Below are positions 2,935 to 42,371 of a DNA stretch of 53,733 nt, piece after piece. The notes under the pieces are model-generated. The model was not told the DNA's origin. It did no database searches and worked only from the letters and a program-made list of their open reading frames with translations. Position 1 is the first letter of the stretch. Each line of letters opens with the position of its first letter. The translations under genes and the position numbers were made by a program. The stretch is from a virus (lineage: Duplodnaviria > Caudoviricetes), in IMG/VR virus record IMGVR_UViG_3300025600_000023, positions 1-53,733 of that record. One strand, written 5' to 3'.

Positions 2935-3588
2935 TCATCTCGCTGCCTCTTCGTTTCTGACGCGAATGTCGATCTTTTCCCGGTAGCGTTTGATGATTTC
3001 GACGTTCGGCATCAGGTCCGGCACCATGTCGGTGTGCGTGGTGGCCACGATCAGGGTGGCGCCGACCTTGCGGGCGACCCGCTGCATGTTGAAGGCGACG
3101 ATTTTGGCGGTGTCGCGGTCCAGCACGGCAAGAAACTCGTCGGCGGTCCAGACTTCGGCACCCGAGGCGATCAGCAGTGCCAGGCGCAGGCGGTAACGTT
3201 GGCCGTCGGACAGAACGCTGGCCGGCTGCAGGAACAGATTGGCGTCGCTGATCCCCACTTGCGCGAGGTAGCCGGTCGCCTCGTTGAGATCCTTGCCGAG
3301 CAGCTCGATGATCGGGCGCTGGCCGAAAACGATCTTGTCGATGTCGGCGACTTTCAGGCCCTCTTCGGTCATCTGCTTACTGAGTTCACGCAGCAGCACG
3401 GACTTGCCACCACCGCTCTGGCCGGTGATATAGACGACATCGCCGCGCTTGATCTCAAGCTGCTGATTGTCGAAGACGACGAATTCCTTTTTGTCCAATC
3501 CCAAACCGAAGGCTTCAGCAACCTCCAGTACCCGCGCTGTGCGCTCTACCTCGATGGTGAAACGCTTGTCAATGGTATAGATGGTCAT
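2935..3588 (-). CDS. Stand-alone ABC-family ATPase
   Basis: Walker A GQSGGGKS, signature LSDGQ, Walker B WTADEF, H-loop ATTH. Confidence 0.88.
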   Translation of the reverse strand: MTIYTIDKRFTIEVERTARVLEVAEAFGLGLDKKEFVVFDNQQLEIKRGDVVYITGQSGGGKSVLLRELSKQMTEEGLKVADIDKIVFGQRPIIELLGKDLNEATGYLAQVGISDANLFLQPASVLSDGQRYRLRLALLIASGAEVWTADEFLAVLDRDTAKIVAFNMQRVARKVGATLIVATTHTDMVPDLMPNVEIIKRYREKIDIRVRNEEAAR

Positions 3589-5330: not shown

Positions 5331-5505
5331 CTTGTTCTCTCATCATGTTCAGCAATTCATGAACGGTCAGCGCGTCCATGTCATCTTCCGATTCGTAGTT
5401 GCCTCCCGCCGCACAGTTTTCGCATTTGAAGGGGTCGAACTCGCGGTTGATGCAGGAGTTGCACTCGGGCCAGCCCTTCGGCCCGCGAATTTTGGAAAAT
5501 GGCAT
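5323..5505 (-). CDS. Small CxxC-CxxC zinc-finger protein
   Basis: CNSC...CENC. Confidence 0.55.
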   Translation of the reverse strand: MPFSKIRGPKGWPECNSCINREFDPFKCENCAAGGNYESEDDMDALTVHELLNMMREQDE

Positions 5506-6218: not shown

Positions 6219-7793
6219 ATGGCAACCCCTGTGAGCAAAAATATCATCACGATTGCGAACAACGCCGTCACCGCCAAACTGATCGACCCTGACCGCGATA
6301 CAAAGCTCGTTGTTCAATCCATTCTGTCTTATGCGGTGTCTGGGTGCGAACACGCGACGGCGTTCAAGCAGGGGCGCTGGGATGGGCGTAGCAGCTTCTT
6401 AGACTTCAAGCTCGGCACCTTCCCGGCTGGGTTCGTGCATCTGGTGACAGCGCACCTCCAACGTCGCGGCTTCCAGGTGCGCCGCGTGCAGAAGCCGCTT
6501 CCCGCACCGCTCGGCGTCGTCAATCCGGTCGTCGACAAGTTCTCTGAAGATCCACGCTACGATTACCAGCGCGACACTGTGGCCAAGCTCCTCAAGCACG
6601 GTCAGATCATCGCCCAGGTCGCTACAGGCGGCGGCAAGAGTCGAATCGCCAAGATCGCCTTTGCCCGTATCAACCGCCCTACCCTCTTCCTAACCACCCG
6701 CTCGATTCTCATGTACCAAATGAAGAAATCGTTTGAGCAAGACCTTGGCATCGAGGTCGGCGTGCTGGGTGACGGTCAGTTCGGCAAGGTCATCAAGAGT
6801 GCCGACGGCAGCGAGCAGCGCGTGATCAAGAAAATGAACGTCGGCATGGTGCAGACCCTCGTTTCACGCCTTGCTGAACCGTGTCCAGATGATGATGTGG
6901 AGGTTCGCAACCACCAGGCCGCCATTCGTCATCAGACGATCAACCTGCTATCCAAATTCGAGTTCATTGTGCTGGAAGAAGCCCACGAGGCGGCCGGCAA
7001 TGGCTACTACGAGATCCTGCGTCACTGCAAGAACGCCCACTACCGCCTGGCCCTGACCGCCACCCCGTTCATGAAGGACGACGAGGAAGCGAACATGCGG
7101 CTGATGGCCAGCTCGGGTCCGATCGGCATCAAGATCACCGAGAAGCTGCTGATTGATCGCGGCATTCTGGCCAGACCCTACTTCAAGACGATTCTGCTAA
7201 AGAACAGACCAAAGAACCTGTATCGCTCTACCCCGTGGCAATCTGCAGTTCGGCTTGGCATCGTCGATAACGAAGAGCGTAACGCCGTCATCCTTGCCGA
7301 GTGCAGCCGCGCCACCAGGGTTGGCTTGTCGGTCATGCTCCTGGTGCAACAGGTGGCCCACGGTCGCAACCTGAAAGACCAGCTCGACGCTGCCGGCGTC
7401 CGCTGTGCCCTGATCATGGGTGAGAACGATCAGAAGGAACGCGAGATCGCCATTGGCCAGCTAAAGGACGGCAAGATTGACGTACTGATCGGCTCCACCA
7501 TTCTTGATGTGGGCGTCGATGTGCCAGCGGTCGGGATGATCATCCTCGCCGGTGGCGGCAAGGCCGAGGTTGCGATGCGCCAGCGCATCGGTCGCGGGCT
7601 GCGGGCCAAGAAGAATGGTCCGAACGTCGCCCTGATCGTGGATTTCGACGACCCCTTCAACAATCACCTGAAGAAGCACGCCTTACAACGTCAAGCCTAC
7701 ATCGCCGAAACGGAAGGCTTCAACGAAAACATCCTGGCGCCGGGTGCTGACTTCGACATGATTGCGCTCGGCATCGTTAAAAAAGCAGCGTGA
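6219..7793 (+). CDS. Superfamily 2 (UvsW/SSL2-like) helicase
   Basis: ATGGGKS, LEEAH, LTAT, DVGVDVP, QRIGRGLR. Confidence 0.92.
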   Translation: MATPVSKNIITIANNAVTAKLIDPDRDTKLVVQSILSYAVSGCEHATAFKQGRWDGRSSFLDFKLGTFPAGFVHLVTAHLQRRGFQVRRVQKPLPAPLGVVNPVVDKFSEDPRYDYQRDTVAKLLKHGQIIAQVATGGGKSRIAKIAFARINRPTLFLTTRSILMYQMKKSFEQDLGIEVGVLGDGQFGKVIKSADGSEQRVIKKMNVGMVQTLVSRLAEPCPDDDVEVRNHQAAIRHQTINLLSKFEFIVLEEAHEAAGNGYYEILRHCKNAHYRLALTATPFMKDDEEANMRLMASSGPIGIKITEKLLIDRGILARPYFKTILLKNRPKNLYRSTPWQSAVRLGIVDNEERNAVILAECSRATRVGLSVMLLVQQVAHGRNLKDQLDAAGVRCALIMGENDQKEREIAIGQLKDGKIDVLIGSTILDVGVDVPAVGMIILAGGGKAEVAMRQRIGRGLRAKKNGPNVALIVDFDDPFNNHLKKHALQRQAYIAETEGFNENILAPGADFDMIALGIVKKAA

Positions 7794-8762: not shown

Positions 8763-9265
8763 ATCCGCTAGACGGCTACAAGTTCGAGGCTGTCGAATCC
8801 GCCAACCCCGGTCGGTCCGACCCCATTGTTCTGGTGCTGGGTCGCAAAGGAGACCAAGGAATAAAGGTGCCGGGTGTGTCCGTCCTGAAACAGCAAGCCT
8901 GGTCCCAATCCGGTAGGCACTTTCACATCTTCGACACGCACGTTGAAGAGATCAGTCCAGGCGATTTCGGTCGATACGTCTCTTTCGGTGAGACAAAAAA
9001 TGGCCTTAGTGACTGGGGCGCGAGCCGCCCGCTCGTTTTGCCAAACTATGACGTGATCCAGCCCATCGCCTGCGAGCAATCCCGGCGCAACTACGAGGAA
9101 TACTGCCTCTTGCGCATCGAGTGCGGCTTCGACGAATCGCCAGGAATGACATCCGCCGTCTGGTGCAATTGCTCACTTGAATCGCAGGCAGACATGTTGG
9201 AACAGATGCGTGTCGGCGCTGCCGCGCATGGCAAGTACGTCAAGACGCACGGCGAGGTTTGGTGA
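8756..9265 (+). CDS. Hypothetical protein (ends HGEVW)
   Basis: Start overlaps the previous stop. Confidence 0.55.
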   Translation: MVNPLDGYKFEAVESANPGRSDPIVLVLGRKGDQGIKVPGVSVLKQQAWSQSGRHFHIFDTHVEEISPGDFGRYVSFGETKNGLSDWGASRPLVLPNYDVIQPIACEQSRRNYEEYCLLRIECGFDESPGMTSAVWCNCSLESQADMLEQMRVGAAAHGKYVKTHGEVW

Positions 9266-9643
9266 CGACAAAAAAAGTCAGCCTTTACCGACGACTATCA
9301 GGAGTATCTGTGGTTGGGAGCCGGAGTATAAGAGGTCCGCTGCCGAGGTCTGGCCTGGAAATATAAGAGGTGTTGTCGGAGGGTCGGAAGTAGGAAGGCA
9401 GGGCCTCCGAGCATTCGGTGTGGTTCTAAGACTATTACCTTTAGCGCAAACGATATAAACGGTTTATCACATTCGAGCGCGACACGTTAGCGCGATATGC
9501 GCTAACACTATGCGACGAGACGAAACGCACATAAGCAACGCTAGAGGGCTTTAAATCGTTTGGGTGATATGATGGTATAGGTTAGCATCATTCAACGCAG
9601 CATAGCGCGATTCTGTACGCTGCATGCTCAAACGACGCACGTT

Positions 9644-9666
9644 AAAAAGCCCGCTTTCGCGGGCTT
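9644..9666 (-). terminator. Intrinsic terminator
   Basis: AAGCCCGC-GAAA-GCGGGCTT plus T-run on minus strand. Confidence 0.8.
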
Positions 9667-9689
9667 GTCGTTTAAACGATGTAAATCGT

Positions 9690-10355
9690 TTATTCTGTTT
9701 CTACCTCTTCGTCGGTCTGCTCGTTCGCATCAAGCTTGAACAGTTCGCGAAGCTGCGCGACCTTAGCAGCATCAAGGGTTAGCGTCTGATTACGTGCGCC
9801 CTTGATCAGATCAGCGAGACCGAGAATGCGAGCAAGTTCTGACGTGCTAGACTTTTGCGTCAGAGCAGTGCTAAGGGCAACCCCAGCGCGTGACTTCATG
9901 ACTTCGTTTGTATTCAGATCAACACGACGCGATAAGCTTGCTAACTGACCATCGCGTGATAGCGCGTTATTATTATAGAGCGCATTGTTGATAATCGAAG
10001 CGGTATAAGGGTCGATTTTTGCGAGACCGTTCAAGTCGCGCTGTGCAAGGGCTTGAATCATTTTGATGATTTTGTCTGCTGCATACACTGCAACAAAATT
10101 CGACTTAGCTGCTTTGTCGCAATTCGCTGCAATTGCTGCAAATTGATCAACAGAAACTACGCTTTTAACCGCGTCAATTGCTACCGCATAATTAGCGGTT
10201 TCGACCGTTTTTGCATAGCGCGTGAAACGCTCTACCTGACCTTGCTCGGGATACCCTGCGGTAACACGTTCTGCGCAGAATGCAGCGCGAGTTTTGAATG
10301 CAGCAACAAGGGAAGCTTGAAGGGAAAGGGCAATTTTCGAAATACGCTTAGACAT
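9690..10355 (-). CDS. Hypothetical early protein inside the motif-depleted zone
   Basis: RBS GGGAG, own promoter and terminator, atypical codon usage, no Trp. Confidence 0.75.
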   Translation of the reverse strand: MSKRISKIALSLQASLVAAFKTRAAFCAERVTAGYPEQGQVERFTRYAKTVETANYAVAIDAVKSVVSVDQFAAIAANCDKAAKSNFVAVYAADKIIKMIQALAQRDLNGLAKIDPYTASIINNALYNNNALSRDGQLASLSRRVDLNTNEVMKSRAGVALSTALTQKSSTSELARILGLADLIKGARNQTLTLDAAKVAQLRELFKLDANEQTDEEVETE

Positions 10356-10423
10356 GGTAAAACTCCCAAAGGGCGCAGTCATATGACCGCTAGTCGCTGC
10401 ACCGAACCCGATGCAGTAACGCT

Positions 10424-10452
10424 ATATTAAGTCACCGGCGACTTATTAGCAA
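10424..10452 (-). promoter_or_regulatory. Sigma70-like promoter with the repeat motif in the spacer
   Basis: TTGCTA-17 bp-TAATAT; motif at 10432-10445. Confidence 0.65.
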
Positions 10453-11069
10453 GGTATGACTAGATAAAATGTGATGAATCTTTTATTACAGTCGATATAG
10501 TTCTTTTGTACTACGTCGGGCGCAGAATCGTTTATACGATATAAACGAAATACCCGAATGCCCTGCCCGGTCCTATCTCGGTCCATGGCATCAACCTGGA
10601 CAACTCCACGATCCGAGATTCCACGGCTTGGAGAGGAAAATCCATGAAAATAATGCAGCCAAAGACGCCGAAAACTTTCCAATAAAGTGCCGTCTTGGTT
10701 GCCGAGCGGAGAATCCACGGCAAAGGTGCAGCCTGCGACGGCGCCGCTGTTCTGGCGCTAGGCTTGTTCAGGCAACTACAGGAGATCCGGGATGCTGGCG
10801 CGTCTTCTGGCCACGTTGATACGACGCACCCGCTCCTGCTCGCGACACAGCTCTCCGAAGCGTTCCAACTCCTTCAATGCTTCGTCCTGCTCGTCGAGTT
10901 CAGCGAGGTCCGCACGCTCGATGGTGGGTTCCAGTGCGTGTGGGCAATGCGTGACGCCCGAGGGTTGTTTGGATGCGGTGTGAAGCGTTTGCGTAGCGTG
11001 CATGATGGTTCCTATGAGGTGGGTTTGCATTGGGTGAAGCAGTGAATACTTCCTCACCCGTGACTGATG

Positions 11070-11192
11070 CTAATGGATGAAGCGATCCCAGACCAATCCG
11101 ATGCGCTGAAATTCAAAGTAGTGAGGCGTACCGTCGCACAGACTGACGAAATCGCGATCCTTACAGGTGTTGATCTGATCTTGAATGAACAT
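11070..11192 (-). CDS. Microprotein paralog B (40 aa)
   Basis: RBS AAGGA; MFIQDQINTCKDRDFVSLCDGTPHYFEFQRIGLVWDRFIH. Confidence 0.65.
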   Translation of the reverse strand: MFIQDQINTCKDRDFVSLCDGTPHYFEFQRIGLVWDRFIH

Positions 11193-11202
11193 GATGATTT
11201 CC

Positions 11203-11334
11203 TTAGTGGGTCCAGCGGGTCCAGAGGTGCGCCCACATCGCTCGCGGAAGCTTGGATAGGTCATCGCACTCGTTGAGCCAATCCCGGTGACAGGATTCGT
11301 TGATCTGGTCTTGGATGAACATCGGGTTAAACAC
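11203..11334 (-). CDS. Microprotein paralog A (39-43 aa)
   Basis: RBS AAGGAG; (MFNP)MFIQDQINESCHRDWLNECDDLSKLPRAMWAHLWTRWTH. Confidence 0.65.
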   Translation of the reverse strand: MFNPMFIQDQINESCHRDWLNECDDLSKLPRAMWAHLWTRWTH

Positions 11335-11555
11335 TTGAATCTCCTTCGGTTGTTCGTTGCACATGCAACAGAACCGATATTACCGAGCGCGACCAGGCAC
11401 CGAGCTGGACAACAAGGTTTGTCCATGGCCTCAAGGTGGAGCTTTAAGGCGGCCTGTAGGCGATGATGTTGCCTTGGCCTGATGTGGATGATGTTGGCTG
11501 TTCCGTGGCCGGTGTTGAATGCTTTTAAGACAGGCTCGAAGCCTGTCTTGGGTGC

Positions 11556-12020
11556 TTAGATCGACGATTCAAGTCCTTCTTCGTCGATGTAGCGCAGTCC
11601 GGTTACATCACCAAAATATACAGACTGTCCGAATACAGTGTGGTAGTGCATATATTCTTCGTCGTAGTCAAGATTCTCCTGAGAAATCGCTTCTTCGACA
11701 ATGTAGCGCGGGTTATAGTGATTTCCTATCGCTACGACCAGATCGCTATGCTCTTTATTGAAAGCGGGATCAACTCCTTCACTTTCAACAACGTTCGTAT
11801 TTCTATTGACGGATCGGTAAAATAATGTTGTTTCCGAACCTGATTTGCAAATTTCATACGTGCATATATCATCTCGTACATAACAACATTCGAAGAGCGG
11901 AGTTACTTTCAAGGACTTGGTTGCTTGTTCTCTGCTAAACACGACATTCCCCTTGGTGAATTGTTTGTCGAACTCGACAAATTCATTTTGACGATCTGAA
12001 GAAGGCACTTTACTGGACAA
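11556..12020 (-). CDS. AT-rich hypothetical protein
   Basis: 154-aa ORF in a low-GC patch; start uncertain. Confidence 0.45.
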   Translation of the reverse strand: MSSKVPSSDRQNEFVEFDKQFTKGNVVFSREQATKSLKVTPLFECCYVRDDICTYEICKSGSETTLFYRSVNRNTNVVESEGVDPAFNKEHSDLVVAIGNHYNPRYIVEEAISQENLDYDEEYMHYHTVFGQSVYFGDVTGLRYIDEEGLESSI

Positions 12021-12120
12021 CTTAATTATCCTGCGAAGTTCATAATCTAGGCATTCATTCGTTGTCCAGTGAAGCGCCTATTACTACAGGTAATAATGAA
12101 TTTCACTAAACGAGGTCATC

Positions 12121-12276
12121 ATGAAAACCTACTTAATTTATATGCGTCGCGGTAACTCCACCGATGTCACGGATTTTAAGAAAGTTACCATTCAAGGAAA
12201 AGACCGCAGTAAAGCAATAAGAATCGCAGAAGCGATGAACCCAGGATTTAAGGCAGAATCCGCAATAGGCATTTAA
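12121..12276 (+). CDS. 51-aa basic protein in the AT-rich patch
   Basis: RBS GAGGT; MKTYLIYMRRGNSTDVTDFKKVTIQGKDRSKAIRIAEAMNPGFKAESAIGI. Confidence 0.6.
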   Translation: MKTYLIYMRRGNSTDVTDFKKVTIQGKDRSKAIRIAEAMNPGFKAESAIGI

Positions 12277-13024
12277 CTCAAACCGAAGTTATTGCCTGTC
12301 TGAAATTCTCACTTTGCGATCCGACAAGTCAGGTTAATCACTTTGCTAATCATTAAAAGCCATGGACGTTTCACTCGCCAGAAGGAGGCAGGAATCTGCC
12401 TCGTGGATCTGACCTAGAAGCCTTCGTTGATCCTGATCACCCGGTCAGGCATACGGCGTTGCGCGGCGCGATTTTTCCTGCTCTTCCTGCTCTCGCGAAA
12501 ATCCAGGTAATCCATGCCGGCAAGGATGGCGAATGTTCCAGCGCCGACCATCCCGACATAGGCGAAGTAAAGGATCATGATGTTCATTTGGCTTCCTTCG
12601 GAGTGGTTGGCTTCAGGTTGCGCTGGATGGCCCGCTTGATGGCCGCGACCGGATCGTAGGTGGCGTTCATTCGGCGACCTCGCCCTGGAGGATCAGCTTG
12701 ATGAACTTGTTGGCGTGGGTGTAAGTGCGGAACACGCCAACCCAATTCGAGTTCTCGTCAAAGACGGTGCAACCGTCTGCGCCACATTGAATGGTGTATT
12801 TCATGGCTAAACCCTCGTAGGAAGACGGTCAAAGACGGCGGCATAGGCGCAGACGAACGGCACCTTTTTCTTCTTGGCGTTGCGCAGCGCGGCGTACCAG
12901 CCCCAGCAATGAATATTCCTTCGCAACTGTCTGACGAGATCCATCTCTTGCTCCCGGTAATCACTGCGAACATGCAGTGACTTCATTATTCAGTACTGAC
13001 TGAGGCATTTTTGCGTGTACACAC

Positions 13025-13322
13025 GGAAAAGAGGGTTTGTCCTGCTGCCCGCTCCCGTAAAGTTAGGCGTGACCACCCCTACCCTTCAGCCAAGAAGGTG
13101 GGACGGATTGCGTTAGGCCCCGAAGGGAGTTCCTGACTTGCATGAAGGGAGCCTATCCCCTCCTGCCCTCGACCCCAGGAATCACACACGGTCGCCAAAG
13201 TTTTACGGAGTTGCACCGCCTTGCATCACGAGCCAAGGAGTTTGGTAGGACATTTCTTTCCGACGACCATCCTGGGTCTCATAGGCTTAAGGCGGGAAGT
13301 GCCTGCACCCGAAGGTGCAAGC
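13025..13322 (-). ncRNA. Candidate ~300-nt structured ncRNA
   Basis: Promoter TTGCAC-18-TATAAT (13325-13354); 5' UUCG hairpin, nested stems, possible pseudoknot; no credible ORF. Confidence 0.55.
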
Positions 13323-13331
13323 GAATTATAG

Positions 13332-13580
13332 TCAGGAGTGAGTTATCTGTGCAAGCGAATTAACGTGGCGATCACAGTCGGCCCAGGCTTCACCGATGGT
13401 GTCTGAGGTTCCCCAATCCTGGAAGTCGTCGGAGTGACGGTGCATCCAGCGATACTGACCTTCAAACTCAGGCCCGTGGGTGTCACCCATGTTCTGGACG
13501 TAATACCCGAGGGCGACGAGTTCAGGGATGCGCTTGGCGGCAGCGATGCGTGCATTGAGAAGGGCTGTAGCGATGCTCAT
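13332..13580 (-). CDS. Hypothetical protein
   Basis: RBS AAGGA, start MSIATALL. Confidence 0.6.
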   Translation of the reverse strand: MSIATALLNARIAAAKRIPELVALGYYVQNMGDTHGPEFEGQYRWMHRHSDDFQDWGTSDTIGEAWADCDRHVNSLAQITHS

Positions 13581-13714
13581 GATGCTTTCCTTGTGGTGGT
13601 TGAGGTGACGAGTCATCATACCCAGCCGGGTGTGGCGGTGAGGTGGAGAACAGCGCCGCGCCACGGACATTCCGAGGCTGTGCCGTGGCTTCTCCTGTGC
13701 CTGTGTTTCGCCTG

Positions 13715-28333: not shown

Positions 28334-28921
28334 TTAAGCCGCAGTCAGCATTGGTACACCAAGGGCCTTCGCCAGCAGCGCATTCAAACCGGAAACGCAG
28401 ACCGCAGGCAGGTTGGTGTTCTTGACAACGTTCTTGGCCCAGTCCGGGATGAACGGATCGGACTCGGGCCAGACTTCAAGCAGCTTGGCGACCGTCGTTG
28501 CCGAGTAGAGAACTTGATTGATGCTCGACTTCAGTTCCTCTTCGCTTGCTTCGATGGCGTCCTTGCGGTCTTCCAGCTTGCGAAATTCAGCGTGGAGCTT
28601 CGCATCGACAACCGCTTCGCCGCGACGGTATTGCCAGCTTTGCGGGAACGCCATGTCTTTATCGAACTTCAGCGTCAGACGGTCGTGTGCCTTGACGTTC
28701 GGCGCGATCAACGCTTCCTTTGAGGAAGTGCGCCAAAACAATTCACGAGGCAGTTGCTCGATCAGCGCCTGATCCTTCTTGGCGACGATCTTGTCATAGA
28801 CCTTCAGCGAAAACGCCTTCCAGTCAGCTTCGAGTTGTGCCTTTTCTGCCGCGAAGGCGTTCTTCATCGCCGCGTCGTGAATCTGCTGGCGAAGGATGTT
28901 CGTGATACGGGCTGTGGCCAT
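28334..28921 (-). CDS. Nmad5 (nucleotide-modification-associated domain 5)-like protein
   Basis: RITNILRQQI N-terminus; TTVAKLLEVWPE...NLPAV...LN C-terminus. Confidence 0.7.
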   Translation of the reverse strand: MATARITNILRQQIHDAAMKNAFAAEKAQLEADWKAFSLKVYDKIVAKKDQALIEQLPRELFWRTSSKEALIAPNVKAHDRLTLKFDKDMAFPQSWQYRRGEAVVDAKLHAEFRKLEDRKDAIEASEEELKSSINQVLYSATTVAKLLEVWPESDPFIPDWAKNVVKNTNLPAVCVSGLNALLAKALGVPMLTAA

Positions 28922-28999: not shown

Positions 29000-29359
29000 T
29001 TAAGCGTACTCGGTTGCGTTTTCCGTCTTGAGCAAAGTGTCAAGACGTGCGAGACCTTTGTTCAGCTTTCGCTCAATAGCGTCCTGCAGCTCGCCGGCTG
29101 TGGCGCCTACAAAAGCACCCTGCGCCGTCGCCACAATCAGCACATCAGCAATCTCGTCAATCAAGTCCTGCCGCGTTCCCTTGATTGTCGCTTGCGAAAG
29201 CTCGCCAACCTCCTCGAATAGCTTGATGATGTTCGTTTTGTGATCCGAGAAGCCGCCACTGCAGAATCCTTCAACGAGATTTTGTGCGGCGTCATTAAGG
29301 TCGCGAATTGATGTGATCCGCAAACCTTCAAAGATAACAGTCGGGCTGGAGGTCATCAT
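29000..29359 (-). CDS. MazG-like NTP pyrophosphohydrolase
   Basis: KLFEEVGEL...DEIADVL. Confidence 0.8.
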   Translation of the reverse strand: MMTSSPTVIFEGLRITSIRDLNDAAQNLVEGFCSGGFSDHKTNIIKLFEEVGELSQATIKGTRQDLIDEIADVLIVATAQGAFVGATAGELQDAIERKLNKGLARLDTLLKTENATEYA

Positions 29360-39972: not shown

Positions 39973-40836
39973 CTAAACCGGAACGTGAAGAACTTCCTGT
40001 GCGGGCGCCGGATGTTCGGTATTACTTAATGTGGCTTTTCGTGCCAGCGCATACTTTGCATCCTTGTAAATGTAGTCATGAACGTCCTTTGCTCTGGAAC
40101 TGTAAACGAGGCGAAAAACGTTTCCGTGATTGGAAAAGGCGCCCTTGCAGCCAAGTGCGTAATCCATGTGCAACATCACTCCGTAGAGTAGGTCCATTGC
40201 GCCAACCAACGACAGACGCAGGTACTTACTTCGGTGTTTCGAACTCGGGATAGTGTTTTTTACTGACCCGTCGCCATCCCACAGGCCCCGAATAAAGTGC
40301 CGGTGCATGCCTTCCTTTAGGGTCGGGTACGTAAGAATGTGAGACTTATTCTCAACGCATCCATGATGCCGCAATCCGGTCACGAGTGACTTACTGCTGG
40401 CGACAAACTCATACCCCTGTCGGTGCGCGTCGCTATACACCTTCTTGGCAACTATTGGGTTAGTGGCGGAAAGAATGCTCTTGACCATTTCGACGATCTC
40501 ACGGTCAGTCGATCCGATACCCATTACATACTTACCGCCCTGCGCCGTCGTCACCCATCCGTCTGAATACATCAGCCCGAGCAAGTATGCTTTTTCCTCA
40601 GTGTCAATCTCGCCGTCGAACAGATGCTCATTTAGCGAGTGCTTTCTGGCATTTGCCAGCCCGGTCATCCCTTCGCTCTGCGTTCTGGTTTCAACTCCCA
40701 GTTGTCTGAGTATTTTCAGCACAGAAACATGGCTCTTGTACCCAAATTTTGCAGCAACTACAGAGAGGCTGTAGCCGGCCAAATACATACTGGCGATAGC
40801 GCCCTTTGTTTCGTCGGAAGGCTTAGCGTGTCCCAT
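39973..40836 (-). CDS. Free-standing double-motif LAGLIDADG homing endonuclease with N-terminal HTH
   Basis: YLLGLMYSDGW and FIRGLWDGDGS; lower GC than neighbours. Confidence 0.85.
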   Translation of the reverse strand: MGHAKPSDETKGAIASMYLAGYSLSVVAAKFGYKSHVSVLKILRQLGVETRTQSEGMTGLANARKHSLNEHLFDGEIDTEEKAYLLGLMYSDGWVTTAQGGKYVMGIGSTDREIVEMVKSILSATNPIVAKKVYSDAHRQGYEFVASSKSLVTGLRHHGCVENKSHILTYPTLKEGMHRHFIRGLWDGDGSVKNTIPSSKHRSKYLRLSLVGAMDLLYGVMLHMDYALGCKGAFSNHGNVFRLVYSSRAKDVHDYIYKDAKYALARKATLSNTEHPAPAQEVLHVPV

Positions 40837-40895: not shown

Positions 40896-41666
40896 TTAAC
40901 ACACTTGCCTTGCTTCATGTTCGGCAGGGAAATTACCATCAGCAATATGTCTCTCGGCAATGTCGGCGAACAGCACCGGCCAGCGCTTTGCAAATTCACG
41001 CAGCAGCGGGATCATGATTTGCCTGATCTGCGGGTGCGCCTCTCTGCTACAGCGAAGATTCAAAATATGTCTGAATTCCCGCACGTTGGCCGTCACCTGG
41101 ATCTCGGTCTTCAGCGAGTTCGGCAGCACCGAGCGGGCTTCTTGTGCGGAGCGCTTGAACTGCTGCGTCAAGGTGTTGTAGCCCCACTCCGTCCAGAGAC
41201 AGGTCAGAAACCACACATCGAAGGAATTCATCTGCACGCCCTCGCCGTCTTCGCCGCCCATCGCGAAGAGCTTCGGGCCACCGGAAACACTCATGAGCGC
41301 CGTCGGGATGATGACGTTTTGCGTCGGCTCGGCAGGGTCGAAGAAGAACGGATCAACCAAGCTGATCTCGTTGCCGTACTTGTCCTTGCTGTAGTTGCAG
41401 TATCGTGTTGACTCCTGCGAGAACGAGGCAACCCGATGCCGCACCAGCTCGTGCGTGACGCCACGATCGGTCAGAAACTTGACGGTGATGACGCCATGCT
41501 CCAGCACGCTCTCGTGCTTGAAGTTCTTGATCTTCTCGATGATCGCCACATCCGAGCCGGGACCGATCTTGTCTTCCGACTTGTAGCAGACCCTGGCGCC
41601 AAGCTCGATGTTGCGGAGCAGGTTGTTGTGGTCGATGATCTCGAAGGTTGGTTGGACGATTTTCAT
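40896..41666 (-). CDS. thyX: Flavin-dependent thymidylate synthase
   Basis: HESVLEH, THELVRHRVASFSQESTRY, ARSVLPN, AHPQIR. Confidence 0.95.
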   Translation of the reverse strand: MKIVQPTFEIIDHNNLLRNIELGARVCYKSEDKIGPGSDVAIIEKIKNFKHESVLEHGVITVKFLTDRGVTHELVRHRVASFSQESTRYCNYSKDKYGNEISLVDPFFFDPAEPTQNVIIPTALMSVSGGPKLFAMGGEDGEGVQMNSFDVWFLTCLWTEWGYNTLTQQFKRSAQEARSVLPNSLKTEIQVTANVREFRHILNLRCSREAHPQIRQIMIPLLREFAKRWPVLFADIAERHIADGNFPAEHEARQVC

Positions 41667-41690: not shown

Positions 41691-41888
41691 TTACTGCTTG
41701 TCCAGGGGATGAACCGGACTCGGCTTGTAGAAGCCCTCGCCCTTCAGGACAAAGCCGCCCTTGAACGAAACTTCCTTGCGTTCGGCGATTGCTCCGCACA
41801 GCGGACACTCGACATCGACCACTTCAGAGCGGACGATCTTTTCGAACTCGTTGCCGCAGTCGGCGCATTTATAATCGAAGATTGGCAT
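41691..41888 (-). CDS. FmdB-family zinc ribbon protein
   Basis: MPIFDYKCADCG...CPLCG...FVLKGEGFY. Confidence 0.85.
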   Translation of the reverse strand: MPIFDYKCADCGNEFEKIVRSEVVDVECPLCGAIAERKEVSFKGGFVLKGEGFYKPSPVHPLDKQ

Positions 41889-41909
41889 TGCTGTTCCCTC
41901 GTTAAGAAT

Positions 41910-42252
41910 TGGCGCCCACCTTCTGTTCTCAGGCACAGCCGAAGCTATGTGGTGGGCATCCCGGCTTGCCGGCTTTTAGGCGGCTTGCAGGTAAACGCTG
42001 TCGTTGGCGGTTACTGGTTTTGCGCTGATTAGGTCAGTCGCCTATCCGGTTGCCTTCTCCACTATCTCGCCCAATCGAAACCAATTCAGGCCCATAAGGG
42101 AGAAGACTGGCGAGCGTCGTTGCTTCACGCGAACACCGCCGCATACTTATCTGGTGGGTCTGGTAAGGACTCGGCCAGTCTTCTTTCTTGTGGACCTGGC
42201 GGGACTCGAACCCGCGTCTTGAACGTCTTCACTTCAAAGGAATTACAACCAT
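41910..42252 (-). ncRNA. ssrA: Circularly permuted two-piece tmRNA, tag (A)ANDSVYLQAA
   Basis: Acceptor piece first (T-arm GCGGGTTCGAGTCCCGC, 3' strand CAGGTCCA ending at 42191), hairpin intervening sequence, then coding piece GGGCCTGAATTGGTTTCGA from 42093; G3-U70 pair; tag ORF 42008-41976; outer ends approximate. Confidence 0.9.
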
Positions 42253-42371
42253 CATGGTCAGCTTCAACCATCCGAAAGGCACTGCGATACCCTTTGGATG
42301 GTTGGCGCGATGACGAGTCGCACCATCCCTCGGTCTTTCTCCGAGACCCAGCCTGGCTCTAGGGTACTGGT

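What the first reader, a model, noticed from the sequence alone, without database searches (positions are those of the whole stretch)
9410..10435. A 1-kb zone with no HGGM/KCCD tetramers, flanked by inward-facing clusters of them
Seen: between 9410 and 10435, every GG I found is GGT or part of GGG, and every CC is ACC or part of CCC. AGGA, AGGC, CGGA, CGGC, TGGA, TGGC and their complements are absent, even inside the 9690-10355 gene. Base composition alone would predict a few tens. The AT-rich patch at 11556-12300 contains them, so low GC is not the cause. The left flank (9300-9400) is rich in HGGM on +, and the right flank (10560-10720) is rich in TCCA/TCCG/GCCG, the same motif on -. Inference: a protein-binding or base-modification motif is being excluded, for example at a genome terminus/pac site or first-injected segment. 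HGGM could be the target of the phage's own ParB-ABC-GNAT module.
Basis: partly seen in the sequence, partly recalled or inferred. Interest (0 to 1): 0.85.

Follow-up and report, generated by a model that had tools for sequence, protein, structure and literature searches.

The report
HGGM-free regulator cassette in phage
One small, self-contained regulator gene unit of a soil phage is written without the four-letter DNA word HGGM on either strand, as are the matching units of related Rhizobium phages, which implies that an unidentified factor reads this short word on DNA and that this unit must escape it.

Summary
HGGM/KCCD occurs 3231 times in the 53,733-bp record, about once per 16.6 bp. None lies in 9410-10435. 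That gap is 1030 bp and the next largest are 135 bp (adjacent) and 96 bp. Dinucleotide shuffles of the zone give 34.6±4.3 sites. Permuting the gene's own synonymous codons gives 17.0±2.8, and never fewer than 7 in 20,000. Both orientations of the word and the non-coding parts are each void on their own.

The zone holds one unit: a weak promoter-like site, a 221-aa protein of an uncharacterised family that may bind DNA, a terminator hairpin and operator-like palindromes.

Four related Rhizobium phage-plasmids each have exactly one equivalent void, on the same side of the UvsW-like helicase. Each holds a homologous gene and starts at the same 9-mer, TCTAAGACT. Four other relatives have none.

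In the Rhizobium phages almost all GG/CC is gone and the proteins lack Gly, Pro and Trp.

This scan has noted GG/CC-free cassettes before on other DNA. My paper searches found no description.

The parts
9410..10435 (.). Zone with no HGGM/KCCD word on either strand (GC 0.48 against 0.56 for the window; rich in TA steps)
10436..10570 (.). Extension of the zone: a single word (CGGC at 10436-10439, in the spacer of the promoter-like site), then 131 bp without any
   Evidence: 0 observed against 4.0 in shuffles of 10440-10570
9690..10355 (-). Gene for a 221-aa protein (P0001; a longer frame starts at 10382). Uncharacterised family of about 78 representatives. All-helical N-terminal part, with a weak winged-helix-like C-terminal part. 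Codon score 0.049 per codon, against 0.2-0.45 for most genes.
   Evidence: read
10424..10452 (-). Promoter-like site TTGCTA-17 nt-TAATAT (8 of 12 matches; my reading, below the scan tool's threshold of 9 and not listed by it)
9644..9664 (-). Terminator-like hairpin GCCCGC-GAAA-GCGGGC followed by TTTTT, 26 nt after the stop codon
   Evidence: hairpin in both the MFE and centroid folds; not listed by the consensus scan
10529..10547 (.). Perfect 19-bp palindrome CGTTTATA-TCG-TATAAACG upstream of the promoter-like site; operator-like
9668..9679 (.). Perfect 12-bp palindrome TCGTTTAAACGA just after the terminator. It is one of the AAACGAT sites: 5 of the 10 AAACGAT sites in the window lie in 9448-10533.
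9455..9467 (.). Palindrome ATAAAC-G-GTTTAT, overlapping the direct repeat ACGATATAAACG (9450-9461, repeated at 10536-10547)
9487..9507 (.). 21-bp inverted repeat GTTAGCGC-GATAT-GCGCTAAC
9425..9433 (+). TCTAAGACT, invariant 9-mer. It occurs once per genome, 0-40 nt inside the helicase-proximal edge of the void and in the helicase's orientation, in 5 of 5 void-bearing genomes.
9397..9415 (.). Left arm of an imperfect inverted repeat (19 nt, 79%) whose right arm is 10549-10567; the two arms bracket the zone
10549..10567 (.). Right arm of the bracketing inverted repeat

Best explanation
The zone is one conserved, self-contained regulatory gene unit of a phage-plasmid-type siphovirus. It corresponds to the GG/CC-free cassette of the Rhizobium phages RHEph10, RHph_N1_15, RHph_X66 and B1VFA.

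The unit is kept free of the duplex word 5'-HGGM-3' by continuing selection on the DNA itself. My inference is that some factor reads a GG/CC-centred short word on double-stranded DNA, most likely an enzyme that cuts, nicks or chemically marks DNA. That factor would disable this unit at the time it has to work.

The rest of the genome, which carries the word every 16.6 bp, is presumably either protected later or not needed at that moment. This is the logic documented for the first-step-transfer DNA of T5-like phages, where only sites in the first-exposed DNA make the phage sensitive.

Shown: the purge, its DNA-level and two-strand nature, its sharp edges, its conservation in related phages, and the homology of the enclosed gene.

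Inferred: that a reader exists, what it is, whose it is (host or phage), and when it acts.
For: 1. The purge goes far beyond composition or codon usage. There are 0 sites against 34.6±4.3 in dinucleotide shuffles and 17.0±2.8 in permutations of the gene's own codons, with a minimum of 7 in 20,000. GCC and TCC codons are used only before a C, where they form the allowed CCC.

2. Both orientations are absent from the message strand independently. Three non-coding stretches, including 240 bp beyond the terminator, are also void. So the constraint sits on the duplex, not on the protein or on one RNA.

3. There is exactly one such void in each of 5 of the 9 related genomes scanned. Sizes are 1030 bp (window), 1404 (N1_15), 1073+167 (RHEph10), 842 (X66) and 881 (B1VFA), with next-largest gaps of 96-217. 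The other 4 genomes have maxima of 205-354.

4. The voids lie on the same side of the UvsW-like helicase, 1.6-5 kb from it. Each starts at the invariant TCTAAGACT.

5. The main void ORFs are homologous to each other. X66 scores E 2.6e-10 and B1VFA 1.7e-8 against the family profile. N1_15 matches B1VFA at 1.4e-8 by BLASTP. A profile of the four Rhizobium void proteins aligns to the family at 95.5% probability, E 1.4e-8. These proteins are only 14-27% alike between lineages, so the rule has been kept through long divergence.

6. In all five voids the surviving GG/CC are of the same two classes, GGT/ACC and GGG/CCC.

7. Precedent: in T5-like phages, restriction-modification systems restrict the phage only when their sites lie in the first-transferred DNA (passages of PMC10644984 read, which also cite the same for CRISPR-Cas and Ssp systems).
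Against: No reader was identified.
- No gene is shared only by the window and N1_15 and missing from the void-less BUCTxx99 and JGB6. The window is about half a genome (CheckV 51%).
- An A1-type nuclease homologue is present in only 2 of the 4 Rhizobium phages and not in the window.
- 50 ORFs were scanned in total, 30 against Pfam and 20 against PHROGs. None hit a DNA methyltransferase, transglycosylase or GNAT family. The only hint of modification is an Nmad5-domain protein at 28334-28921.

The timing of expression is unknown, and no RNA run is listed. Whether the zone enters the cell first is untested.

I know of no bacterial or phage enzyme with the specificity HGGM.

Confidence: 0.45

Rival explanations
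1. Self-exempt regulator. The encoded protein family is itself the reader. It binds the short word densely on DNA, as a genome-wide silencer or coating protein for host shut-off or for keeping the plasmid prophage quiet. Its own operon must lack the word to stay expressed.
For: The family is found in 5 of 5 void-bearing genomes and 0 of 4 void-less ones. The C-terminal part gives weak winged-helix matches to ArsR, MarR, TubR and F93. The rule differs between lineages (HGGM only here, nearly all GG/CC in the Rhizobium phages), as expected if protein and word co-evolve.
Against: The correlation is partly trivial, because the void gene is the family member. The DNA-binding fold is weakly supported: no PDB match at E<=0.001 and no Pfam family. 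The cassette carries classical operator-like palindromes (AAACGAT type), which suggests ordinary site-specific binding. The Rhizobium phages keep a second, normal paralogue full of the word outside the void. Silencing of a word-rich host genome would be lethal in lysogeny.
Confidence: 0.15
2. Escape from CRISPR-Cas. The word is a protospacer-adjacent motif (CC for type I-F, NGG for type II-A), and a cassette without it can neither be targeted nor sampled. This would be useful if the cassette encodes a counter-defence or its regulator.
For: GG/CC is the core of both well-known PAMs (recalled). In the Rhizobium phages nearly all GG/CC is gone, 6-11 per kb against 136-142. In T5, CRISPR-Cas works only on the first-transferred DNA (passage of PMC10644984).
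Against: In this window 59 GG/CC dinucleotides per kb remain in the zone, and ACC, GGT, GGG and CCC are at normal level (49 against 52.4). So CC and NGG PAMs are plentiful, and a four-letter PAM KCCD would be needed. One cut elsewhere in the genome would still kill the phage.
Confidence: 0.1
3. Structural DNA element. The zone is the tip of the packaged genome or a pac, ori or partition region, and the word is excluded because of packaging, ejection or replication mechanics rather than a sequence-reading enzyme.
For: The void starts at an invariant 9-mer in 5 of 5 genomes and keeps its position and orientation even though the enclosed gene is inverted here. Earlier notes of this scan place such cassettes at the tip of packaged DNA in relatives (untested here). 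In BUCTxx99 the syntenic DNA holds an iteron field.
Against: The zone is mostly a protein-coding gene under purifying selection. No skew turning point lies at the void. No record has it at an end. RepC and ParA lie elsewhere in the Rhizobium phages. Mechanics alone do not explain a four-letter rule. Being at the tip is compatible with the best explanation rather than opposed to it.
Confidence: 0.1
4. RNA-level reading. An RNA-modifying or RNA-cutting defence, or RNA structure or translation, selects against the words in the transcript.
For: An earlier scan note reports message-strand dinucleotide purges in jumbo-phage early genes (e1-5367541).
Against: Both HGGM and its complement are absent from the same strand, each significantly. 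The stretches outside the predicted transcript are void too: 240 bp past the terminator and the DNA upstream of the promoter-like site.
Confidence: 0.05
5. Passive origin. The zone is a recently acquired foreign island (a moron) whose donor happens to have this composition, or the result of a context-specific mutational process such as a deaminase, without selection in this phage.
For: GC is 0.48 against 0.56. TA-containing tetramers are 3-8 fold enriched. The codon score is low. The unit has its own promoter-like site and terminator.
Against: The own-codon permutation test removes codon usage as a cause. Ala codons are replaced by GCA (17), GCT (12) and GCG (8), not only by C-to-T products. 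The edges are sharp. The rule holds in five phages whose cassette proteins have diverged to 14-27% identity.
Confidence: 0.05

Closest known systems
First-step-transfer (pre-early) DNA of T5-like phages (T5, BF23)
   Same: A small, defined part of the genome must lack the recognition words of DNA-targeting systems, while the rest may carry them. PMC10644984 (passages read) shows that restriction-modification systems restrict these phages only when sites lie in that part.
   Different: There the words are ordinary 5-13 bp sites of particular host systems and their absence varies from phage to phage. Here a degenerate 4-bp word expected every 16.6 bp is absent over 1 kb, down to codon-pair choice. 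The T5 segment is about 10 kb in a terminal repeat and encodes A1 and A2. This zone is 1-1.2 kb, its position in the virion DNA is unknown, and no A1 homologue is in the window.
GG/CC-free cassettes of RHEph10-type phage-plasmids
   Same: One void per genome, on the same side of the helicase, with the same boundary 9-mer, a homologous gene, and the same surviving word classes GGT and GGG.
   Different: Those cassettes have lost nearly all GG/CC and their proteins have no Gly, Pro or Trp. Here GGT, ACC, GGG and CCC are at normal level and the protein keeps 7 Gly and 2 Pro. The gene is inverted relative to the backbone. Only one gene is present rather than two or three.
Restriction-site avoidance in phage genomes
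   Same: Selection removes a short DNA word because something in the cell reads it.
   Different: Classical avoidance is genome-wide, statistical rather than absolute, and mostly concerns palindromic 4-6 bp sites (own knowledge). This one is local, absolute and asymmetric.
Frequent-cutting nickase and methylase pairs of chloroviruses, such as CviPII recognising CCD (recalled, not checked here)
   Same: A virus-associated enzyme that reads a 3-letter CC-centred word (CC followed by A, G or T), close to KCCD.
   Different: Under a plain CCD rule, CCCD and ACCD would also be sites, yet both occur in the zone. No such enzyme or methylase was found in the window or named in the RHph_N1_15 annotation.
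Morons (autonomous promoter-gene-terminator units of deviant composition in phage genomes)
   Same: A stand-alone unit with its own promoter-like site and terminator, and a composition unlike its surroundings.
   Different: Morons are accessory and patchily distributed. This unit is conserved in position across distant relatives, and its composition follows a strict word rule.

Membership tests
GG/CC-free cassette of RHEph10-type phage-plasmids | Exactly one void per genome, many times longer than any other gap | tested here: met
   Window: 1030 bp against a next-largest 135 and 96. The four Rhizobium phages: 842-1404 bp against 133-217.
GG/CC-free cassette of RHEph10-type phage-plasmids | Same genomic neighbourhood (downstream of the UvsW-like helicase that diverges from the ParB-ParB-ATPase-terminase block) | tested here: met
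   The void starts 1.6 kb (window) and 4.3-5 kb (Rhizobium phages) after the helicase.
GG/CC-free cassette of RHEph10-type phage-plasmids | Encloses a gene of the same protein family | tested here: met
   hmmsearch gives X66 2.6e-10 and B1VFA 1.7e-8, but RHEph10 6e-4 and N1_15 0.029, which are weak on their own (33 ORFs tested). The link holds through BLASTP chains and hhalign at 95.5%, E 1.4e-8.
GG/CC-free cassette of RHEph10-type phage-plasmids | Boundary 9-mer TCTAAGACT at the helicase-proximal edge | tested here: met
   5 of 5 void genomes, once each. Also present in void-less BUCTxx99.
GG/CC-free cassette of RHEph10-type phage-plasmids | Near-total absence of GG/CC, and proteins without Gly, Pro or Trp | tested here: not met
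   59 GG/CC per kb in the zone against 6-11 in the Rhizobium voids. The protein has 7 Gly, 2 Pro and 0 Trp.
T5-type first-step-transfer DNA | Lies at the end of the virion DNA that enters first (in T5, within a long terminal repeat) | not testable with these tools
   Only contigs could be laid. The record is a fragment without end repeats.
T5-type first-step-transfer DNA | Encodes the pre-early takeover genes A1 and A2 | tested here: not met
   No A1 homologue in the window. In N1_15 and RHEph10, A1 lies far from the void. It is absent from X66 and B1VFA.
Genome-wide restriction-site avoidance | The word is depleted over the whole genome | tested here: not met
   3231 sites outside the zone; the 1-kb mean is 59.8±9.2.
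CRISPR PAM avoidance (CC or NGG) | All instances of the PAM are removed from the protected stretch | tested here: not met
   The zone holds 35 GG and 28 CC dinucleotides.
Moron | Own promoter and terminator, deviant composition | tested here: inconclusive
   Terminator hairpin present. The promoter-like site has 8 of 12 matches and is not listed by the scan. Composition is deviant.
Winged-helix transcription regulators (ArsR, MarR type) | Significant sequence or fold match to the family | tested here: not met
   No Pfam hit for P0001 or for 48 family members at useful E. No PDB sequence hit at E below 0.27. Foldseek gives 0 matches at E<=0.001, with partial wHTH hits at E 1.8-5. Atlas structure rows have TM 0.30-0.38.

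The most novel reading that the evidence does not exclude
A so far unknown DNA-reading activity with the four-letter specificity 5'-HGGM-3' (GG not preceded by G and followed by A or C) acts genome-wide in cells infected or lysogenised by this group of phage-plasmids. One conserved regulator cassette is the only stretch exempt from it.

Probability: 0.2. Interest if true: 0.9.

Novelty: new variant of a known kind. Interest (0 to 1): 0.78.

Why it matters
An absolute, local ban on a word expected about 60 times per kilobase is one of the strongest sequence constraints one can find in a genome. In relatives it is strong enough to remove three amino acids from the encoded proteins. It points to a DNA-reading factor that nobody has described.

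The constraint is conserved in culturable Rhizobium phages, so the question can be tested directly: add one silent site and see what breaks.

This window adds the most informative case so far. It also shows that the exempt domain is anchored at a conserved 9-mer, not at the gene, which is inverted here.

Tried and rejected
Relatives of the zone's DNA. blastn of 9300-10700 against GenBank phages found no match.

Relatives of the protein.
- tblastn against phages and against plasmids: none.
- Pattern scans of viral contigs, metagenome contigs and genome contigs with the protein, with the P0001+P0002 alignment, with P0081 and with P0004: no confirmed relative.
- The neighbouring 150-aa protein also brought nothing from viral contigs.
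- The DNA of the closest homologue P0002 (61% identity) was therefore never seen.

Sequencing runs. Two peat-metagenome runs hold the stretch, but only as contigs. They are identical to the window, with no joints, ends or variants in the zone. No RNA holder is listed. One contig junction lies at 6513-6531, away from the zone.

RNA and repeats.
- Rfam on 9000-11000 gave only a sub-threshold Trp-leader hit over the terminator (E 0.19).
- Folding 9400-9700 gave z -2.8.
- tRNA scans of the flanks found none next to the void.

Function of the protein.
- Pfam, PDB sequence profile and Foldseek PDB gave nothing significant.
- BFVD gave two uncharacterised phage proteins.
- The Atlas gave unnamed clusters.

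Ideas rejected.
- Partial voids in JGB6 (83.4-85.6 kb) and BUCTxx99 (23.5-24.5 kb) are iteron-like repeats with normal GG/CC content, not word voids.
- A C-to-T deaminase signature is not supported: Ala GCC is replaced mostly by GCA.
- A 7-deazaguanine pathway is not supported: no such product is named in RHph_N1_15 and there is no TGT-type hit in the window ORFs scanned.
- An origin or terminus by skew is not supported.
- Inverted repeats bracketing the Rhizobium cassettes look like operator pairs, not element ends.

Papers.
- Searches found no description of a GG/CC- or HGGM-free phage segment.
- PMC7969092 and PMC10783043 were seen only in the listing.
- For 10.64898/2026.04.02.716235 I read only the outline and abstract.
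- Supplementary files were not consulted. They, and subscription papers on the RHEph10 group that the library does not hold, may contain data on the termini.
Full report
WHAT THE RECORD IS. The window is the whole held record, 53,733 bp. It is a fragment, rated 51% complete and without end repeats. It carries UvsX-like recombinase, SbcCD-like nuclease, ribonucleotide reductase, ThyX, MazG-like, RtcB and RNA-ligase genes. It also has two ParB/Srx-like genes, ABC-type ATPases and a UvsW-like helicase.

By helicase similarity and gene order, its relatives are 103-122 kb siphoviruses of the SSU5/RHEph10 phage-plasmid group. The helicase is 52% identical to that of Xanthomonas phage JGB6, 51% to Stenotrophomonas phage BUCTxx99, 44-46% to the Rhizobium phages RHph_N1_15, RHEph10, RHph_X66 and B1VFA, and 44-45% to SSU5 and its enterobacterial kin. 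The runs that hold the sequence are labelled peat metagenome.

THE OBSERVATION. It is correct to the base. HGGM plus its complement KCCD occurs 3231 times. The interval between TCCG at 9406-9409 and CGGC at 10436-10439 has none. The gap of 1030 bp compares with 135 bp (directly adjacent, 10436 to 10571) and 96 bp for the next largest.

All 23 isolated GG inside the zone are GGT, and all other GG lie in runs of three or more. The allowed words are not depleted: ACC+GGT+GGG+CCC is 49 against 52.4 expected.

Several nulls were run:
- Dinucleotide-preserving shuffles of the zone give 34.6±4.3 sites, minimum 20 of 5000.
- With the protein fixed and codons drawn from the phage's usage, the gene would hold 42.3±4.7 sites.
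- With the gene's own codons merely permuted among synonymous positions, it would hold 17.0±2.8, never fewer than 7 in 20,000 trials. Codon order, not only codon choice, therefore avoids the word. For example, GCC and TCC are used only before a codon that starts with C.
- On the message strand, HGGM alone (mean 9.1) and KCCD alone (mean 8.0) were never absent in 10,000 permutations.
- The non-coding stretches 9410-9689, 10356-10435 and 10440-10570 are each void against 7.7, 3.6 and 4.0 expected.

Low GC is not the cause. The window starting at 11509 (GC 0.44) has 43 sites per kb.

The counts are high (top 0.9% and top 0.2% of windows), but the strand bias is reached by 4.7% and 14% of windows.

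ANATOMY. All strand statements here are on the minus strand.
- A promoter-like TTGCTA-17-TAATAT lies at 10452-10424. It has 8 of 12 matches. This is my reading; the scan tool does not list it.
- GGGAG lies 7 nt before the ATG at 10355.
- The gene encodes 221 aa and ends at 9690.
- The hairpin GCCCGC-GAAA-GCGGGC plus TTTTT lies at 9664-9644.
- Palindromes built on AAACGA/TCGTTT lie at both ends of the gene: 10529-10547, 9668-9679 and 9455-9467. Five of the ten AAACGAT sites in the window fall within 9448-10533.
- The zone is TA-rich. GCTA/TAGC occurs 19 times against 3.9 expected and CTAA/TTAG 13 times against 1.7. It has an atypical codon score of 0.049 per codon.

The protein belongs to an uncharacterised family with 78 representatives at E<=0.001, 21 of them at E<=1e-10. 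The family is found in Pseudomonadota and phages. The AlphaFold model is confident (pLDDT 93.3, pTM 0.89), but it has no PDB match at E<=0.001. Only weak partial hits of its C-terminal part to winged-helix regulators were seen. 'DNA-binding regulator' is therefore an inference.

RELATIVES. I scanned eight complete relatives. Each of the four Rhizobium phages has exactly one void of the same word:
- RHph_N1_15: 1404 bp, next gap 133.
- RHEph10: 1073 bp plus an adjacent 167.
- RHph_X66: 842 bp.
- B1VFA: 881 bp.

BUCTxx99, JGB6, SSU5 and Cyrano have none, with maxima of 286, 354, 253 and 205. The two largest of these are iteron-like repeats with normal GG/CC content.

In the Rhizobium phages the purge is broader. 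GG/CC falls to 6-11 per kb against 136-142 per kb. RHph_N1_15 has 1150 bp without a single GG or CC. The few survivors are GGG and GGT, the same classes that are freely used in this window. HGGM is thus the word forbidden in all five.

The voids lie on the same side of the helicase, 1.6 kb away here and 4.3-5 kb away in the Rhizobium phages. Each begins 0-40 nt before the invariant 9-mer TCTAAGACT. That 9-mer occurs once per genome and always in the helicase's orientation.

The main ORF of each void is homologous to the others:
- X66 and B1VFA match the family profile at 2.6e-10 and 1.7e-8 (per sequence, 33 ORFs tested).
- RHEph10 and N1_15 match weakly on their own (6e-4 and 0.029). They are 87% identical to each other and match B1VFA and X66 at 1e-8 and 2e-7.
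- A profile of the four aligns to the family at 95.5% probability, E 1.4e-8, over 176 columns.

Those four proteins have 0-1 Gly, 0 Pro and 0 Trp in 190-204 residues. The window's protein has 7 Gly, 2 Pro and 0 Trp.

The Rhizobium phages also keep a second, ordinary paralogue outside the void. None was found in this half-genome. By profile or by these tests, the family was found in 5 of 5 void-bearing and 0 of 4 void-less genomes.

In this window the gene is inverted relative to the backbone, while the 9-mer keeps its place. This explains why the void runs 240 bp past the terminator. The exempt domain is anchored on the DNA, not on the transcript.

WHAT IT MEANS. The rule is kept while the enclosed proteins diverged to 14-27% identity, so it is maintained by a continuing force acting on the duplex. 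The simplest reading is a factor that reads a GG/CC-centred word and a unit that must not be touched by it.

The documented precedent is the first-step-transfer DNA of T5-like phages. There, restriction-modification systems restrict the phage only when their sites lie in that segment (PMC10644984, passages).

- No GNAT, methyltransferase or transglycosylase family was hit in the 50 ORFs scanned, 30 against Pfam and 20 against PHROGs.
- The A1 homologue annotated in RHph_N1_15 is missing from X66 and B1VFA.
- No gene is shared only by the window and RHph_N1_15.
- An Nmad5-domain protein beside a MazG-like gene (28334-28921) is the only hint of nucleotide modification. It has no counterpart in the three relatives compared.

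The rivals are these: the family itself as a self-exempt word-binding protein, CRISPR PAM avoidance, a structural role at the DNA tip, RNA-level reading, and passive foreign or mutational origin. They are weighed in their own section. The last two are contradicted by the two-strand, non-coding and permutation tests. PAM avoidance is contradicted here by the 63 remaining GG/CC dinucleotides.

EARLIER NOTES AND PRINT. This scan has noted GG/CC-free cassettes before on other DNA: 20 notes in at least 15 genomes for one word query. Several notes place them at the tip of packaged DNA, which I could not test. I treated these notes as leads. The comparison with the GenBank Rhizobium phages above is my own.

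Four paper searches found no description of such a segment.

VERDICT. This is a real, extremely non-random and conserved feature. The mechanism is still open.

Noticed in passing
window 9425-9433; L005 10766-10774 (-); L023 about 15002; L037 about 7450-7458 (-); L046 about 3247-3255 (-); L012 about 5402-5410 (-): TCTAAGACT (mostly TCTAAGACTTCGAT) is invariant at the helicase-proximal edge of the void in all five void-bearing phages. It is also present once at the syntenic place in void-less BUCTxx99. Its function is unknown; it could be a boundary, a start site or an end of DNA.
   Followed up: partly
window 28334-28921 (-), next to 29000-29359 (-): A protein with an Nmad5 domain ('nucleotide modification associated domain 5', Pfam E 4e-19) lies beside a MazG-like gene and an RNA ligase. 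This is a possible nucleotide or DNA modification module. It has no counterpart in RHph_N1_15, BUCTxx99 or JGB6 by tblastn.
   Followed up: partly
window 39973-40836 (-) and 40896-41666 (-): A LAGLIDADG homing-endonuclease-like gene sits directly next to the ThyX thymidylate synthase gene.
   Followed up: no
window 41838-42280 (-): ARAGORN calls a permuted tmRNA here, with tag peptide AGKPGCPPHSFGCA.
   Followed up: no
L023 15258-15938 (RHEph10 gp148): The annotated gp148 (226 aa, Cys/Arg/Leu-rich) appears to be called on the wrong strand. The opposite strand (record 99195-99809, minus) encodes a 204-aa protein that is 87% identical to the RHph_N1_15 void protein.
   Followed up: partly
L003 19780-19860 (RHph_N1_15), just outside the void: An array of eight or more G3-G4 tracts with short spacers (G-quadruplex-like) lies directly upstream of the GG-free zone. 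RHEph10 has a similar array.
   Followed up: no
L003 19727-19749 and 20769-20791: A 23-nt inverted repeat (87%) brackets the void gene of RHph_N1_15. The left arm is itself palindromic. Like the AAACGAT palindromes here, it looks like paired operators at both ends of the gene.
   Followed up: no
L001 18606-18892 (BUCTxx99): A dense field of GCTGAAC/GGTTCAG iterons lies at the place syntenic to the void, next to a 199-aa gene with no detectable similarity to the family. It may be a plasmid-type origin or partition site.
   Followed up: no
window 10400-13700: About 3 kb next to the zone has weak coding scores, only small ORFs and lower GC (0.47-0.51). The word is at normal density there.
   Followed up: no
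family proteins P0048, P0056 (also P0040, P0070, P0078): 2 of the 81 family proteins fetched have no Gly, Pro or Trp at all, and several have only 2-3. GG/CC-free versions of this gene probably exist in further, unseen genomes.
   Followed up: no
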